From positions 1-64,000 of the IMG/VR virus record IMGVR_UViG_3300020112_001004: a DNA stretch of 64,000 bases; one strand, 5' to 3'. The notes under the pieces were generated by a model. The model worked only from the letters and a program-made list of their open reading frames with translations, had not been told where the DNA came from and did no database searches. Shown here one piece after another: positions 84 through 57,166 of this stretch. Within the stretch, counting starts at the first letter, position 1. Every line of letters starts with the position of its first letter. Made by a program: the position numbers and the translations under genes. Source of the DNA: a virus. Taxonomy: Duplodnaviria > Caudoviricetes.

Positions 84-416
84 ATGAAGAATAAAGTAAG
101 TTTTGAAACTAGAGCAGATGAGATTTTAACTGCATTTAATAATGCTATGAAGGAAAATAATTCAATAGTTCGTTTTCAATTTTTGAGGAGTGTAAAAGAA
201 ATGAAAGCTATGTATAGTGTAGATGTAATAGCAGTAGTTGAAGATGAAATGCTAAAAGAAATAAAAAATACAAATTTCATAATGTCGGACAGATTCTATA
301 AAATTGTAAGAACAGTGATAAAAGAAATGGGATATGAAGACAGAACAAGACCAGCTAACAACACAGGTAACGTTTTCTCAATTAATTTATTTAAAGAATT
401 TTGGGAATGTCACTAG
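84..416 (+). CDS. hypothetical phage protein
   Basis: 110 aa ORF, AGGAG RBS, downstream of motif-A promoter-like repeat. Confidence 0.75.
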   Translation: MKNKVSFETRADEILTAFNNAMKENNSIVRFQFLRSVKEMKAMYSVDVIAVVEDEMLKEIKNTNFIMSDRFYKIVRTVIKEMGYEDRTRPANNTGNVFSINLFKEFWECH

Positions 417-498
417 TTTGGAGGGCGATTTTCGCTCTCTAATACCCTAAGTATATATAAGTAATACGATTTAATTAAAGGGAGTGTCGAAGGAGGTT

Positions 499-1137
499 AT
501 GGCGATGGAAATCAAAGAAATATTACAATTAATAACTAAACTAGAGGATGAGTTTGATTCTAAAGAGGGTAAACGTCTCAACCCCTATACCGAGGAGGGA
601 CTTGCTCTAATTACAGATAAATACCACTATGTCAACTATGGATTAAGAGATATTATAACCAATAAGGAGGAGTTAAGAAAAGCGTATTTTCAAGTGTACC
701 TAAAGCTATATTCTATTTATCTAAAGCGCTTAATAAAAAGAAATGAAGGTGGATTACTATATGAGATAATTTCTCTTTGCTGGGCTATCGACTATAAGGA
801 TGATTTTTGTATAGATTACTGTTGCAGTAGAAACTCTATTTTATGGGTTCTTAAAGACAATAATGATGGTTACTTTAGTAAGTATCATTATGGATATGGA
901 TATGGTTACAATATTTTTGCACAACCTTCAGAATACTCTGATGAAGTTCTAAAGGAGGCAGTTAGAATAATTTATGGCATAGCTGGAGAACAGTTTGATA
1001 AACGAGTATACAAGGGTAAGGCATTATTAGAACAACCTGTAGAGGAGGGATGGCATAAACTTGTTATGTATTGTTTAGACTATTTCCAAGAGGGGCAAAT
1101 AAAAGATGAACTGTATCTAGAGTGTGCGTTGGCTTAA
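499..1137 (+). CDS. hypothetical protein, C-terminal ELYLE-tag family; paralog of 54196..54828
   Basis: AGGAGG RBS before ATG 499; high visible identity to 54196..54828 (LEQPxEEGWHKLVMYCLDYFQEG); ends DELYLECALA. Confidence 0.8.
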   Translation: MAMEIKEILQLITKLEDEFDSKEGKRLNPYTEEGLALITDKYHYVNYGLRDIITNKEELRKAYFQVYLKLYSIYLKRLIKRNEGGLLYEIISLCWAIDYKDDFCIDYCCSRNSILWVLKDNNDGYFSKYHYGYGYGYNIFAQPSEYSDEVLKEAVRIIYGIAGEQFDKRVYKGKALLEQPVEEGWHKLVMYCLDYFQEGQIKDELYLECALA

Positions 1138-1203
1138 GAGCATAAAGGTAACAAATCAAATATTTTAGATAATAATATAATATAAATTAAAAGGAGTGAT
1201 TAC

Positions 1204-54104: not shown

Positions 54105-54195
54105 AACGAGCTGATAATAATATAATATAAGGAGGAGTAATCCCCCTAGTACATACTTGCCTAAAGGTGGGTAAATAATTTAAGGGAGATTAATA

Positions 54196-54828
54196 ATGGG
54201 AGTCAAAGAAATAAATCAATTAATAGCCAAACTCGAGGACGAGTTTAACGCTACAGAGAGAGCCACGCCAAGGAAGTATGATTCTGATTGGAAGCTTCAC
54301 CTTGTAGTAGAGAAATATTACTATGTCAACTGTAGATTAAGAGATATTATAACCACTGAGGAAGGGTTAAGAGAGGCTTATTATCAAGTATATCTGAAGT
54401 TGTTTTCTATTTATCTAAAGCGTTTAGTCAAAAAGAACTATAGTGGATTACTATACGAGATAAAATATCTTTGTTGGGTTATTGAGTTTAAGAATGATTT
54501 TTTTGTTGAGAATTGTTGCTCCAGAAAGGGCGTTCTTTGGGTTGTCAAATATAATAATCCTACTAATTACTTAACCAAAGAGCATGGTTACTGTGGTTAT
54601 GATATAACTAGAACACCTTCGGATTACTCGGAGGATATTCTAAAGGAAGCAGTCCAAGTGGTTTATAGTATGATTGGTGGACAGTTTGATAAACAAGTAT
54701 ATAAGGATAAAGCAGTGTTAGAACAACCTACAGAGGAGGGATGGCATAAACTTGTCATGTATTGTTTAGATTATTTCCAAGAGGGGAAATTAAAAGACGA
54801 ATTATACCTTGAGTGCATGTTAAGTTAA
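54196..54828 (+). CDS. hypothetical protein, ELYLE-tag family; paralog of 499..1137
   Basis: ends DELYLECMLS. Confidence 0.8.
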   Translation: MGVKEINQLIAKLEDEFNATERATPRKYDSDWKLHLVVEKYYYVNCRLRDIITTEEGLREAYYQVYLKLFSIYLKRLVKKNYSGLLYEIKYLCWVIEFKNDFFVENCCSRKGVLWVVKYNNPTNYLTKEHGYCGYDITRTPSDYSEDILKEAVQVVYSMIGGQFDKQVYKDKAVLEQPTEEGWHKLVMYCLDYFQEGKLKDELYLECMLS

Positions 54829-54946
54829 TAGCCTACGGTGTCGATAGGTAACAATTTAAAATAAGTTGATAATAATATAATATAAGGAGGAGCAATCCTC
54901 CAGTACATATCTGCTTTTAGCAGATAATAATTCAAGGAGTGATTAT

Positions 54947-57166
54947 ATGGATAATAATAATAATTTAATTTATATTGAAGCTGGGGAGTTCGTAGATGAA
55001 CAACAAAGGGAATTCTCGACCTACACCACAATCCAAAGAGGATTGCCACAATTAGAAGATGGGTTGTTACCAGTTCAGAGAAAAATAGTTTATGGTATGT
55101 ACAAATCCAAGTTTAATTCTAAAAATAAATTTCATAAGTCCAATGAGCTAGTTGCGTCAGCGATGAGATACTATACGCATGGAGATACTGGATTGTATTT
55201 AGCAATATCTAAATTAACAAGTGGATATGAAGGGTTGTTATACCCTCTAGTAATCTCACACGGTATTTTTGGTAAAGCGTATAGCACAGCACCACCTAGT
55301 GCGATGAGATATACTTCTGGTAAACTATCTTCTTTTACAGAGGACGTTATGTTATCAGAATTATCTAAGAACTGTGTAGAATTTATATTAGATGAAGAAG
55401 ATTCTTTATCCCAACCTGTTACACTTCCTTCAGTAATACCGTATATATTGTTAAGAAGTGGTTTAGCTTTAGCTACGGGTTTTAACTCCATATTCCCAAG
55501 CTATAATTTAAAAGATTTAGTGGAGGCAACTAAAAAACTAATAGATAACCCAACCGAGGACGTGTTAAATCTTTTAGTGCCAGATTTTACAACCAAGGGT
55601 AAATTAATAAGAAATAAATCAGAATTAAGAAAAATATATGATACTGGTAAAGGGTCTATTGTCCTTCAATCAAGGTATGAATTTGACCCTAAGCAAAATG
55701 CTATAATAATAACAGAAATACCTTATAGTCCAATGATTAACAAAGAATCTTTGATACAAGAACTGGTAGATAAGATGGATAAGTATAAAGATATAATTGA
55801 TATAAAAGACGCTTCTGAATATGATGCCGTGAGCGATGAAGCCAAACTAGGGATAATGATTAAAGTTAAAAAAGGAGCCAACGTAGATTTGTTAATGAGA
55901 AGATTATTTAAAGCAACAAAACTTCAATCTTCTTTTGGAGTGAATCAAACCCTACTTGTTGATTTTCAACCTACGACATTAGGGACAAAAGATATAATAT
56001 TGAAATGGGTAGAACAAAGAGTTAAAACTTTAAAAAAGGGTATTGAACATGATTTGAACCAAAAGAATAAAAGAATGCATGTACTTGAGGGGTTAAGAAA
56101 GATTCTTCTAGATATAGATAAAGCTATTAAGGTTATAAGAAACACAGACAACGAAGTAGAGGAAGCTTTAGTTAAAGAGTTTGGAATAGATAAAGAACAA
56201 GCAGAGTTTATATCAAAAATACAACTAAAGAATATTAATAAGAAATATATTTTAAAACAACTTGAGGATATAGATAAACTTAAAGAAGAAATAAGTGGGA
56301 TAGAAGAGTTATTGTCTAGCGATGAAAAGGTTAAAAAGCTTATTAAGGAACAAATGGACGAAGTTGTTAAAAAGTATAACAGACCACGTTTAACAGAGAT
56401 TATAGATTATGACGTTACTGATGACCTAGAAGAAAAACATGAGATAGAAGAATATAATTGTAAAGTTATGGTAACAAAACAAGGTTATATTAAGAAAACC
56501 ATTAAAGGTGGTAATCATAATATTAAAGATGGGGATAGTGTTGTAGAAGAGTTATCTTGTAAAAATAGTGACATTGTTTATATATTCACCAAAGAAGGGG
56601 CTAGGTATAGAGTTAAAGTTTGGGAATTAAATCTAAAGAAGCCTAGTGATATTGGAGAGTATATAATTAAAGATGGAGAAGTGACTTATGTATTCATAGT
56701 AGATGAGTCAAAAGGTAAATTTATATCTGTTTATGGTAATGGTAAAGTGGCTTGTAGTCCTATTGAGTCTTATGCTAAAAAGAATAATAAAATAGTTAAT
56801 TGCAAAAATGGTGAACAAGATTTAGTAGATATGTATTATATACAAAAGGATATGAATTTAGGATTAATCAATAAAAATGGTAGATTATTAATAATTGGAA
56901 CTGAATTATTATCAATGCAAAAAGCCACCAATAGCCAAGGTGTAGTTGGTATAAATATCGACGACGAAATTGGAGAAGAAGTAGTTGGAGGCTTTTTGTT
57001 TGACGAAGCTGTTAATTTAACAATTAACACAACAAAAGGCAAGGAGTATCATTTGGGGCTAGGAGCCAAAGCAATGAGTAAATATAAGAAGGGAAGAGGC
57101 TCAAAAGGTTCTTTTGTAAAAGACAGATGTGAAGTTGTAGATTTTAAAATAGAAAAAGATGAATAA
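54947..57166 (+). CDS. type IIA topoisomerase subunit A (GyrA/ParC-like)
   Basis: RGLP..EDGLLPVQRK, HGD, SAMRYT catalytic Tyr, ITEIPY, C-terminal pinwheel-like repeats. Confidence 0.92.
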   Translation: MDNNNNLIYIEAGEFVDEQQREFSTYTTIQRGLPQLEDGLLPVQRKIVYGMYKSKFNSKNKFHKSNELVASAMRYYTHGDTGLYLAISKLTSGYEGLLYPLVISHGIFGKAYSTAPPSAMRYTSGKLSSFTEDVMLSELSKNCVEFILDEEDSLSQPVTLPSVIPYILLRSGLALATGFNSIFPSYNLKDLVEATKKLIDNPTEDVLNLLVPDFTTKGKLIRNKSELRKIYDTGKGSIVLQSRYEFDPKQNAIIITEIPYSPMINKESLIQELVDKMDKYKDIIDIKDASEYDAVSDEAKLGIMIKVKKGANVDLLMRRLFKATKLQSSFGVNQTLLVDFQPTTLGTKDIILKWVEQRVKTLKKGIEHDLNQKNKRMHVLEGLRKILLDIDKAIKVIRNTDNEVEEALVKEFGIDKEQAEFISKIQLKNINKKYILKQLEDIDKLKEEISGIEELLSSDEKVKKLIKEQMDEVVKKYNRPRLTEIIDYDVTDDLEEKHEIEEYNCKVMVTKQGYIKKTIKGGNHNIKDGDSVVEELSCKNSDIVYIFTKEGARYRVKVWELNLKKPSDIGEYIIKDGEVTYVFIVDESKGKFISVYGNGKVACSPIESYAKKNNKIVNCKNGEQDLVDMYYIQKDMNLGLINKNGRLLIIGTELLSMQKATNSQGVVGINIDDEIGEEVVGGFLFDEAVNLTINTTKGKEYHLGLGAKAMSKYKKGRGSKGSFVKDRCEVVDFKIEKDE

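What the first reader, a model, noticed from the sequence alone, without database searches (positions are those of the whole stretch)
84..57166. Strand-specific purge of TACATA from coding sequences
SEEN (by-eye count): on the + coding strand I found TACATA once inside a gene (12547) versus 27 times in motif B. Near neighbours are common in genes: TACATT/G/C about 20 or more (e.g. 1433, 7798, 20963, 35786, 48872), GACATA and AACATA roughly a dozen each, and the reverse complement TATGTA more than 20 times. INFERENCE: selection acts on the RNA, not on dsDNA, and on the 6-mer UACAUA rather than the 5-mer UACAU. This predicts a phage RNase with 6-nt specificity to which phage ORFs are immune.
Basis: partly seen in the sequence, partly recalled or inferred. 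Interest (0 to 1): 0.85.

Follow-up and report, generated by a model that had tools for sequence, protein, structure and literature searches.

The report
Phage genes purged of MazF site
This uncultured 112-kb phage has removed the RNA word UACAUA, the known cutting site of the Gram-positive toxin RNase MazF, from the message strand of all its genes but keeps 36 copies just after hairpins between genes, so its messages look built to be cut only at chosen points.

Summary
Sense-strand TACATA occurs once in 98.7 kb of coding sequence, against 34-43 expected under codon-preserving nulls. Its reverse complement is at expectation (66 vs 60). Thirty-six intergenic copies (7.6 expected) lie 0-3 nt after a stable hairpin.

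U^ACAUA is the published strict cut site of Bacillota MazF/EndoA, so the RNase class is known, not new. The weaker depletion of near-cognate words matches published MazF off-target sites.

SPO1, K and A511 encode no MazF, but their hosts carry this enzyme. They show the same sense-only purge (O/E 0.25, 0.20, 0.08). The purge therefore does not need a phage RNase.

Three things are special here:
- the purge is deeper and broader than in those phages;
- the hairpin-UACAUA array is genome-wide;
- the phage has two EndoA-like MazF genes, and one is conserved with the array in a relative with 41% DnaB identity.

Best reading: messages immune to MazF inside genes and cut at programmed intergenic points. 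Whether the host's or the phage's MazF cuts is about even odds. No cleavage data could be obtained. This scan noted the same layout before on other DNA (e1-5349010).

The parts
84..57166 (+). Early/replication arm: 62 + strand ORFs (51 kb CDS) with a single sense TACATA
57462..64000 (-). Start of the late arm (runs to 111210 in the genome): 0 sense TACATA in its ORFs. The + strand copies at 58949, 61468 and 62586 are antisense to these genes.
12547..12552 (+). The only in-ORF sense TACATA (codon phase xTA-CAT-A), 221 nt after the MazF-2 stop; weak upstream hairpin (-4.7 kcal/mol)
10110..10478 (+). MazF-1, PemK/MazF family, 122 aa; best solved relative is B. subtilis EndoA (4MDX)
11976..12326 (+). 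MazF-2, PemK/MazF family, 116 aa; orthologue conserved in synteny in the distant relative L087
3323..3349 (+). hairpin (-11.5) + TACATA
5471..5498 (+). hairpin (-10.9) + TACATA
9541..9567 (+). hairpin (-13.6) + TACATA
15342..15366 (+). hairpin (-12.7) + TACATA
16517..16546 (+). hairpin (-14.7) + TACATA
17722..17749 (+). hairpin (-10.9) + TACATA
17984..18008 (+). hairpin (-10.4) + TACATA
18383..18407 (+). hairpin (-10.5) + TACATA
19893..19917 (+). hairpin (-11.7) + TACATA
21179..21206 (+). hairpin (-4.2) + TACATA
22870..22894 (+). hairpin (-10.2) + TACATA
23408..23431 (+). hairpin (-9.7) + TACATA
25477..25503 (+). hairpin (-12.5) + TACATA
27579..27606 (+). hairpin (-9.7) + TACATA
34005..34028 (+). 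hairpin (-10.1) + TACATA
34069..34094 (+). hairpin (-6.9) + TACATA
35560..35583 (+). hairpin (-10.4) + TACATA
37879..37905 (+). hairpin (-8.8) + TACATA
38489..38511 (+). hairpin (-8.8) + TACATA
40701..40725 (+). hairpin (-10.2) + TACATA
41447..41471 (+). hairpin (-10.5) + TACATA
43875..43899 (+). hairpin (-10.2) + TACATA
45462..45490 (+). hairpin (-9.0) + TACATA
46769..46791 (+). hairpin (-10.5) + TACATA
48327..48351 (+). hairpin (-9.3) + TACATA
54130..54155 (+). hairpin (-6.9) + TACATA
54886..54909 (+). hairpin (-10.6) + TACATA
5554..8523 (+). Context only: YonO-like single-subunit RNA polymerase (989 aa). It is the source of the rival RNAP-signal reading.

Best explanation
TACATA is missing from the sense strand of the genes because, as UACAUA in mRNA, it is the cut site of a MazF/EndoA-type endoribonuclease (U^ACAUA). 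Any copy inside an ORF would let the enzyme destroy that message, so copies have been removed by synonymous and near-synonymous changes.

The only copies kept are about 36 intergenic ones, each 0-3 nt (usually 2) after a stable stem-loop. They are most likely programmed cut points. Cleavage would separate neighbouring cistrons. The upstream message would end in a hairpin plus a 2-3 nt tail, which resists 3' exonucleases. In about two thirds of sites the downstream message would begin inside or next to a second stem-loop.

Shown:
- the strand-specific hexamer purge;
- the intergenic excess and its coupling to hairpins;
- conservation of the layout in relatives;
- identity of the word with the published MazF site;
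- two MazF-family genes in the phage.

Inferred:
- that cleavage happens at these sites;
- that it stabilises or segments messages;
- which enzyme cuts. My odds are about 50% that the phage's own MazF(s) contribute, which would also degrade host mRNA, and about 50% that the host's chromosomal MazF acts alone.
For: 1. Purge: 1 observed vs 34-43 expected, with the reverse complement at expectation, in both arms and all three frames.

2. U^ACAUA is the strict in-vivo and in-vitro site of MazF/EndoA of B. subtilis, L. monocytogenes, S. aureus and S. thermophilum.

3. Selection footprint. A2 and C3 are indispensable. The published weak off-targets UACUUA, UACAUC, AACAUA, UACAUG and UACAUU are jointly depleted here (96 vs 174, O/E 0.55). 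UACCUA is not depleted.

4. Lytic phages of hosts with this enzyme share the sense-only purge: SPO1 0.25, K 0.20, A511 0.08. E. coli phages T4 and T5 show 0.61 and 0.80. SPbeta-like BUCT082 shows 1.93, agreeing with the published enrichment in SPbeta/phi3T.

5. Intergenic sites: 36 vs 7.6 +/- 2.5 expected. In 34 of 35 a hairpin ends 0-3 nt before the word, with mean energy -10.2 vs -2.05 kcal/mol for CDS windows. There are 31 distinct stem sequences.

6. Relatives at 97%, 78% and 41% DnaB identity keep the layout with unrelated stems and almost no copy in ORFs: L087 1 vs 7.7; L088 2 vs 11.1, both in an over-extended gene call.

7. For a phage enzyme:
- two PemK/MazF genes whose best solved relatives are the EndoA group, with catalytic Arg-Pro and Thr kept;
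- a MazF-2 orthologue in conserved synteny in the 41% relative that also has the array;
- near-cognate words depleted here but not in K+A511+SPO1 (0.55 vs 0.99), as expected for higher or uninhibited activity.
Against:
- In about 21 of 35 sites, 4-6 nt of the hexamer are predicted to pair in the second hairpin. That would hinder an enzyme specific for single-stranded RNA.
- The phage MazFs are only about 30% identical to EndoA, whereas a known UACAUA cutter shares 65% identity with MazF-bs. Their specificity is therefore open.
- Phage MazF presence does not predict a purge (Perkons 1.54, c-st 1.28), and a purge does not need a phage MazF (K, A511, SPO1).
- The host is unknown, so presence of a host EndoA-type MazF is assumed from its prevalence in Bacillota.
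- Gene calls are my own simple ORF calls.
Confidence: 0.7

Rival explanations
1. Pure evasion of the host's MazF. ORF copies were purged as a counter-defence. The intergenic copies are merely tolerated because a cut there is harmless behind a hairpin. They have no positive function, and the phage MazF genes have another specificity or role.
For: MazF-less SPO1, K and A511 show the same purge. Host MazF restricts SPbeta-type phages. The phage MazFs are only about 30% identical to EndoA.
Against: Tolerance alone predicts roughly chance numbers of intergenic copies, as in K (10 sense vs 8 antisense), A511 (7 vs 6) and SPO1 (5 vs 5). This phage has 36 vs 7.6 expected, and nearly all sit at a fixed 0-3 nt from a hairpin. 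The layout is conserved at 41% protein identity while stems change.
Confidence: 0.17
2. Hairpin + TACATA is a signal for the phage's YonO-like RNA polymerase (terminator, pause or promoter). The word is avoided in genes because it would stop or start transcription there.
For: The phage encodes a YonO-like RNAP. YonO's promoter is undefined. RNAP signals are directional, so they could also give a one-strand bias. Some sites follow a TATAAT-like box.
Against: The purge is present in SPO1, K and A511, where the search with this phage's RNAP found no homologue. It is absent from the RNAP-homologue carriers BUCT082, Perkons and c-st. This reading would need the exact MazF hexamer, and its off-target profile, to arise by coincidence. 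The hairpins lack U-tracts, and true hairpin + T-tract terminators occur separately.
Confidence: 0.06
3. A duplex-DNA signal: avoidance of a restriction or defence site, or half-sites of a palindromic operator (TACATA-N5-TATGTA).
For: About 11 sites contain the palindrome TACATA N5 TATGTA.
Against: A duplex signal cannot tell the strands apart. TATGTA is at expectation in ORFs (66 vs 60), while true restriction-type words are lost from both strands. Only about a third of the sites carry the palindrome.
Confidence: 0.03
4. A codon-pair, translational or mutational context bias unrelated to any nuclease.
For: T4 shows a mild depletion (O/E 0.61).
Against: The loss is 30-fold, occurs in all three frames, and is specific to one hexamer with single-substitution neighbours near 1. 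It is absent from the AT-rich phages c-st, Perkons and BUCT082.
Confidence: 0.02

Closest known systems
MazF/EndoA (ndoA) of Bacillota, cutting U^ACAUA (B. subtilis, L. monocytogenes, S. aureus, S. thermophilum)
   Same: The purged and retained word is exactly this hexamer. The near-cognate depletion profile mirrors published off-targets. The phage's two MazFs have EndoA as their best solved relative and keep the catalytic Arg/Thr.
   Different: The known enzymes are chromosomal, paired with MazE, and highly similar to one another (MazF-sth is 65% identical to MazF-bs). The phage copies are about 30% identical, have no recognisable MazE neighbour, and their specificity is unmeasured.
Selection against UACAUA in 16S rRNA of MazF-encoding Bacillota (bioRxiv 10.64898/2026.08.06.743204)
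   Same: Same logic: RNAs that must survive MazF lack the site.
   Different: That case is host rRNA. Here it is an entire phage ORFeome, together with positively retained intergenic sites.
SPbeta/phi3T interplay with host MazF (Guler et al., bioRxiv 10.1101/2023.04.27.537455; PMC10769878)
   Same: Phage biology is tied to the host MazF cut site. My BUCT082 result (O/E 1.93) reproduces their reported enrichment.
   Different: The sign is opposite. Those temperate phages are enriched in sites and carry MazF inhibitors. This phage and lytic SPO1, K and A511 are purged.
Intercistronic mRNA processing in phages: T7 RNase III sites and T4 RegB (GGAG) (my own knowledge, not checked here)
   Same: Sequence- or structure-specific cuts between genes that leave hairpin-ended, stable messages.
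   Different: The enzyme class and the signal differ. Neither of those phages is known to have purged the signal from its ORFs.
Restriction-site avoidance in phage genomes; ACA-less mRNAs in the MazF 'single-protein production' system (my own knowledge)
   Same: Immunity is gained by deleting a nuclease's recognition word. In the engineered system, only site-free mRNAs are translated while MazF destroys the rest.
   Different: Restriction avoidance is symmetric on both strands (seen here for GATC, CCTGA/TCAGG). The ACA-less system is man-made; this would be a natural counterpart.

Membership tests
PemK/MazF toxin family (the two phage genes) | Pfam PF02452 match above the curated cut-off over the full domain | tested here: met
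   60.1 and 61.5 bits vs a 23.1-bit cut-off, covering 108-109 of 109 positions
PemK/MazF toxin family (the two phage genes) | Catalytic Arg25 and Thr48 (B. subtilis numbering) conserved | tested here: met
   R-P and T are invariant in the alignment of 7 phage MazFs and align to EndoA R25-P26 and T48.
PemK/MazF toxin family (the two phage genes) | Adjacent cognate MazE-type antitoxin (type II TA module) | tested here: inconclusive
   No neighbouring ORF matches an antitoxin family. An acidic 107-aa ORF starts 12 nt after MazF-1, and its role is unknown.
PemK/MazF toxin family (the two phage genes) | Cleavage specificity U^ACAUA | not testable with these tools
   Needs enzyme assays. Identity to EndoA is only about 30%. 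The structure paper listing base contacts is not held.
MazF-site avoidance at the RNA level | Exact published hexamer depleted on the sense strand only | tested here: met
   1 vs 34-43 expected; TATGTA 66 vs 60
MazF-site avoidance at the RNA level | Near-cognate depletion follows the published off-target order | tested here: met
   TACTTA 0.59, TACATC 0.47, AACATA 0.38, TACATG 0.64, TACATT 0.74, TACCTA 1.64, compared
MazF-site avoidance at the RNA level | Seen in phages of hosts with the enzyme and not in others | tested here: met
   SPO1, K and A511 at 0.08-0.25; T4 and T5 at 0.61-0.80. Only 13 genomes were sampled.
MazF-site avoidance at the RNA level | RNA actually cut at the retained sites | not testable with these tools
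Intrinsic (rho-independent) terminator | GC-rich hairpin followed directly by a U-tract | tested here: not met
   The hairpins are followed by NN-TACATA, not T-runs. Only 5 of 92 intergenic hairpins have a T-tract.
Restriction-modification site avoidance | Depletion of the word and its reverse complement alike | tested here: not met
   TATGTA is not depleted. GATC and CCTGA/TCAGG behave symmetrically.
Known RNA family (Rfam) | Match to a curated covariance model | tested here: not met
   0 matches in the window at gathering thresholds

The most novel reading that the evidence does not exclude
The phage runs a natural 'site-free transcriptome' strategy with its own antitoxin-less MazF(s). Expressed early, they would shred host mRNAs at UACAUA and near-cognate sites. 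All phage ORFs would be immune. The same enzyme would mature phage polycistronic RNAs at 36 hairpin-flanked sites into stable units. One nuclease would then serve as both host-shutoff factor and processing enzyme, a layout conserved across a family of large gut and environmental phages.
Probability: 0.35. Interest if true: 0.88.

Novelty: new variant of a known kind. Interest (0 to 1): 0.72.

Why it matters
MazF's strict UACAUA specificity in Gram-positive bacteria was only settled in 2024-2026, and its role against phages is under active debate.

This result indicates that the site leaves a strong, strand-specific evolutionary footprint in phage genomes. The footprint is also present in the textbook phages SPO1, K and A511. 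That implies MazF-type cleavage is a major selective force on lytic phages of Bacillota.

It also indicates that one phage family turned the site into a positioned intergenic signal. This gives directly testable predictions:
- which messages are cut and where;
- whether phage-borne MazFs are offensive weapons or processing enzymes;
- whether a simple genomic statistic (sense O/E of UACAUA) reports exposure of a phage to MazF.

Tried and rejected
- The search for related loci in viral contigs with the 989-aa RNAP found no relative. Relatives were reached instead through the DnaB-like helicase.
- The genome search could not read the metagenome records behind L083-L085. The MazF orthologue was found by walking the contig.
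- Complex prediction of MazF-1 dimer with the 107-aa downstream ORF returned no verdict. It is not used as evidence either way.
- The EndoA-RNA structure paper (PMID 24120662 / PMC4691852) is not held. Base-contact residues could not be mapped onto the phage MazFs.
- Rfam has no family for the element.
- Literature searches for UACAUA or UACAU with phage found enrichment in SPbeta/phi3T. They found no report of depletion in lytic phages or of programmed intergenic sites. The library is incomplete, so prior description elsewhere cannot be excluded.
- Rejected readings: operator palindrome, restriction avoidance, intrinsic terminator, YonO-RNAP signal, codon-context artefact. Reasons are given under rival explanations.

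
Full report
**What is there.** The window is the first 64 kb of a 112,402-bp viral contig. It is an IMG/VR record that CheckV estimates at about 76% complete. The contig has two convergent arms. The + strand genes at 84-57166 cover replication and nucleotide metabolism: DnaB, primase, Dam-type methylase, RecJ, split PolIII alpha, RecD2, anaerobic NrdD, ligase, Mom, RNase H and GyrB/A. The - strand genes at 57462-111210 are structural and late. GC content is about 31%.

On the + strand between 84 and 57166 there are 28 TACATA. One is inside a gene, at 12547. 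The other 27 are intergenic.

The second arm is mostly outside the finding and serves as an independent replicate. It has 0 sense copies in 47.6 kb of ORFs, 33 copies of the reverse complement, and 9 intergenic sense copies.

Against a synonymous-codon shuffle that keeps every protein and each gene's codon usage, 34.0 +/- 5.2 copies are expected, and no shuffle gave fewer than 23. Against a codon permutation the expectation is 43.1 +/- 6.0. Against an order-4 Markov model it is 11.2. One copy is observed. TATGTA is at expectation (66 vs 60).

Words that look like restriction targets are lost from both strands: GATC has no copies, and CCTGA/TCAGG and CAATTG are depleted. That is the behaviour expected of a duplex-DNA signal, and it gives an internal contrast to TACATA.

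Avoidance is visible in each reading frame. Tyr-Ile is written TAT-ATA 84 times and TAC-ATA never. xxT-ACA-TAx never occurs.

**What the word is.** U^ACAUA is the experimentally established cut site of the MazF/EndoA endoribonuclease conserved in Bacillota.
- In B. subtilis, transcriptome-wide end mapping shows cleavage only when UACAU is followed by A. The signal disappears when ndoA is deleted (PMC11780869).
- Reporter assays show the same exact-hexamer specificity for the B. subtilis and L. monocytogenes enzymes. For the S. aureus enzyme, weak extra activity is seen on UACUUA and UACAUC (bioRxiv 10.64898/2026.08.06.743204).
- The S. thermophilum enzyme cuts UACAUA. At high dose it cuts UACUUA and UACAUC weakly, and AACAUA, UACAUG and UACAUU slightly (PMC10893535).

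**Selection footprint.** I measured O/E for all 18 single-substitution neighbours of TACATA.
- Any change of A2 or C3 restores O/E to 0.93-1.20.
- TACTTA is 0.59, TACATC 0.47, AACATA 0.38, TACATG 0.64 and TACATT 0.74.
- TACCTA is 1.64.

The five published off-target words together are 96 observed vs 174 expected. This agreement with the biochemical profile is hard to explain by anything other than a MazF-type enzyme acting on the transcripts.

**Comparative test.** The same pipeline was run on 13 other phage genomes.

| Phage | Host | Phage MazF gene | Sense TACATA O/E |
|---|---|---|---|
| This phage | unknown | yes (two) | 0.03 |
| A511 | L. monocytogenes | no | 0.08 |
| K | S. aureus | no | 0.20 |
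| SPO1 | B. subtilis | no | 0.25 |
| PMBT24 | Enterocloster | yes | 0.28 |
| Lactobacillus 3-521 | Lactobacillus | yes | 0.36 |
| T4 | E. coli | no | 0.61 |
| TR-TP1 | Thomasclavelia | yes | 0.65 |
| T5 | E. coli | no | 0.80 |
| c-st | C. botulinum | yes | 1.28 |
| Perkons | Psychrobacillus | yes | 1.54 |
| BUCT082 (SPbeta-like) | B. subtilis | no | 1.93 |

- SPO1, K and A511 are lytic phages with no PemK/MazF gene. Their hosts are exactly the species whose MazF has been shown to cut UACAUA. All three show a strong sense-only purge.
- Pooled, those three give 25 observed vs 141 expected, with every neighbouring word near 1.
- TATGTA is never depleted in any genome.
- The BUCT082 enrichment matches the published enrichment of MazF sites in SPbeta and phi3T transcripts.
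- Two high-GC MazF-carrying phages (NatCom_42228 and FP_Brigit) expect too few copies to test.

Three conclusions follow. First, the purge is an RNA-level response to the MazF site and is widespread among lytic phages of Bacillota. I found no report of this in the searchable literature. Second, it does not require a phage-encoded RNase. Third, it does not track the YonO-like RNA polymerase. This phage, BUCT082, Perkons and c-st all carry homologues, but only this phage is purged.

**What is special here: the intergenic array.**
- Sense TACATA in co-oriented intergenic DNA is 36 observed vs 7.6 +/- 2.5 expected. The maximum in 300 dinucleotide shuffles was 17.
- In 34 of 35 sites a stem-loop ends 0-3 nt upstream of the word, and the commonest gap is 2 nt. 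Mean folding energy is -10.2 kcal/mol, against -2.05 +/- 2.0 for random coding windows.
- There are 31 distinct hairpin sequences, several with GNRA-type loops, so it is pairing that is kept, not sequence.
- No U-tract follows these hairpins. Real hairpin + T-tract terminators exist elsewhere in the genome, and at two late-arm sites they lie just downstream of the element.
- About half to two thirds of + arm gaps longer than 40 nt carry a site, and none of the shorter gaps does.
- In SPO1, K and A511 the intergenic sense and antisense counts are equal, and only 0-2 sites per genome sit behind a hairpin.
- Rfam has no model for the element.

**Conservation.** Metagenomic relatives were reached through the DnaB-like helicase at 97%, 78% and 41% identity. 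The 41% relative is a 135-137 kb phage seen in several human-gut assemblies. It is syntenic with this phage. It has about 12-21 hairpin-TACATA sites per 21-kb stretch, with unrelated stems, and essentially none in ORFs. L087 has 1 vs 7.7 expected. L088 has 2 vs 11.1, and both of those lie upstream of an obvious RBS in an over-extended gene call. It also encodes a PemK/MazF gene in the same position as this phage's MazF-2: MazF, then a ~430-aa protein, then an MrpR-like protein. The two MazFs share sequence motifs.

**The phage MazFs.** Both genes (10110-10478 and 11976-12326) match PF02452 well above the cut-off. Their best solved relatives are B. subtilis EndoA (including the RNA-bound 4MDX), then the B. 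anthracis and S. aureus enzymes. Both keep the catalytic Arg-Pro and Thr. Identity to EndoA is only about 30%, so specificity cannot be inferred. No neighbouring ORF matches an antitoxin family.

**Mechanism proposed.**

*Shown:* the purge, the word's identity with the MazF site, the hairpin-coupled intergenic excess, its conservation, and the phage MazF genes.

*Inferred:*
- MazF-type cleavage between U and A at the intergenic sites cuts polycistronic RNA.
- The upstream product ends in a stable hairpin plus a 2-3 nt tail. From general knowledge of bacterial 3' exonucleases, that is a poor substrate for them.
- In about 21 of 35 sites the downstream product begins within a second stem, because TACATA pairs with a downstream (T)ATGTA or a hairpin follows directly. 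In Bacillota, 5'-proximal structure slows 5'-end-dependent decay (my own knowledge).
- ORFs are immune because they lack the site.

*A caveat:* pairing of the hexamer in the second stem would hinder a single-strand-specific enzyme. The AU-only stems are weak, but the GCC/GGC-reinforced ones are not.

**Whose enzyme?** For the host enzyme alone: the MazF-less phages show the purge, and the phage MazFs are divergent. For a contribution of the phage enzyme(s): the purge here is the deepest measured (0.03). Near-cognate words are depleted here (0.55) but not in K+A511+SPO1 (0.99), as expected if enzyme activity is high or uninhibited. Positive retention of 36 sites implies cleavage is reliable and useful. 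A MazF gene is also co-conserved with the array. I put this at about even odds.

**Rivals.**
- *RNAP signal for the YonO-like polymerase:* contradicted by the comparative pattern, and it needs a coincidence with the MazF hexamer.
- *Duplex-DNA signal (restriction site, operator palindrome):* contradicted by the strand asymmetry.
- *Codon-context artefact:* contradicted by specificity to one hexamer, the loss in all frames, and the controls.
- *Mere tolerance of intergenic sites:* contradicted by their five-fold excess, fixed geometry and conservation.

**Earlier notes of this scan.** Notes on the same genome describe the hairpin-TACATA element and the two MazF genes, and I verified both. A follow-up on another genome (e1-5349010) reported the same layout in a hot-spring SPbeta relative. 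I did not test that note; it is a lead, not evidence.

**Verdict.** The RNA-level, hexamer-level reading is right. The enzyme class is known. The claim that the purge predicts a phage RNase is not required by the data, though it stays plausible. The genome-wide positioned array, and the generality of the purge in lytic Bacillota phages, are the parts that appear new.

Noticed in passing
whole genome; window 1-64000: GATC is completely absent. CCTGA/TCAGG are both absent (0 vs about 36 expected each). CAATTG and GCGG/CCGC are strongly depleted on both strands. This is classic restriction avoidance, in a phage that also encodes a D12 Dam-type methylase (24618-25478), an N6/N4 methylase (52067-53617) and a Mom-family protein (42884-43540).
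   Followed up: partly
window 5554-8523 (+): The 989-aa ORF has no Pfam hit but is homologous to proteins annotated 'RNA-dependent RNA polymerase' or 'YonO-homolog' in Enterocloster, Thomasclavelia, Psychrobacillus, C. botulinum c-st and SPbeta-like phages. It is likely a YonO-type single-subunit DNA-dependent RNAP.
   Followed up: partly
window, e.g. 25515-25550, 38523-38560, 41483-41515, 43911-43945, 46803-46840: After many sites comes a conserved leader box (about CCCACTCTTAGAGGGGTTAATTTAAAAGGAG). It is predicted to form a third small hairpin just before the RBS. Its function is unknown.
   Followed up: no
window 3305-3322, 9523-9540, 34050-34068, 54111-54129, 54867-54885 and others: A conserved AT-rich box (TGATAATAATATAATATAA, containing TATAAT) lies directly upstream of some hairpins. 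In the late arm it lies downstream of some sites. It looks like a promoter, so some transcripts would start just before the hairpin-UACAUA unit.
   Followed up: no
window hairpins listed under parts: About half of the hairpins are built from GGAGG (Shine-Dalgarno-like) paired with CCTCC (identical to the anti-SD core of 16S rRNA). This could be chance in a purine-rich strand, or it could relate to ribosome binding.
   Followed up: no
window 12547-12552: The single in-ORF site lies 196 nt into the gene immediately downstream of MazF-2. The site is not conserved in the orthologue of relative L087. It could be a leftover or a feedback point.
   Followed up: partly
window 10490-10813 (+): A 107-aa ORF starts 12 nt after MazF-1 and has a strongly acidic central helix-like stretch. 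It is a candidate inhibitor or antitoxin of MazF-1. There is no family match, and the complex prediction gave no verdict.
   Followed up: partly
window 27662-29113 and 29320-32046: DNA polymerase III alpha is split into two ORFs with a structured 200-nt gap. In relatives the gap holds GIY-YIG or HNH homing-endonuclease genes (L083, L085), so an intron or similar mobile insertion is likely.
   Followed up: no
Psychrobacillus phage Perkons (loci L037-L043): It carries a MazF very like EndoA, yet sense TACATA is enriched in its ORFs (O/E 1.54). It has 43 intergenic sense copies vs 6 antisense, many sitting 2-8 nt after TATAAT(TAA)-like boxes, near predicted transcription starts. This is a different use of the same word.
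   Followed up: partly
SPO1, K, A511 (loci L044-L065): These classic lytic Herelleviridae phages show a clean, sense-only, exact-hexamer purge of TACATA (pooled 25 vs 141 expected). I did not find this described in the searchable literature.
   Followed up: yes
all ORFs of the genome: AAAAAA and AAAAAAA runs are markedly under-represented on the sense strand (349 vs 475; 89 vs 187), while T-runs are not. This may be avoidance of slippery or poly-Lys stretches.
   Followed up: no
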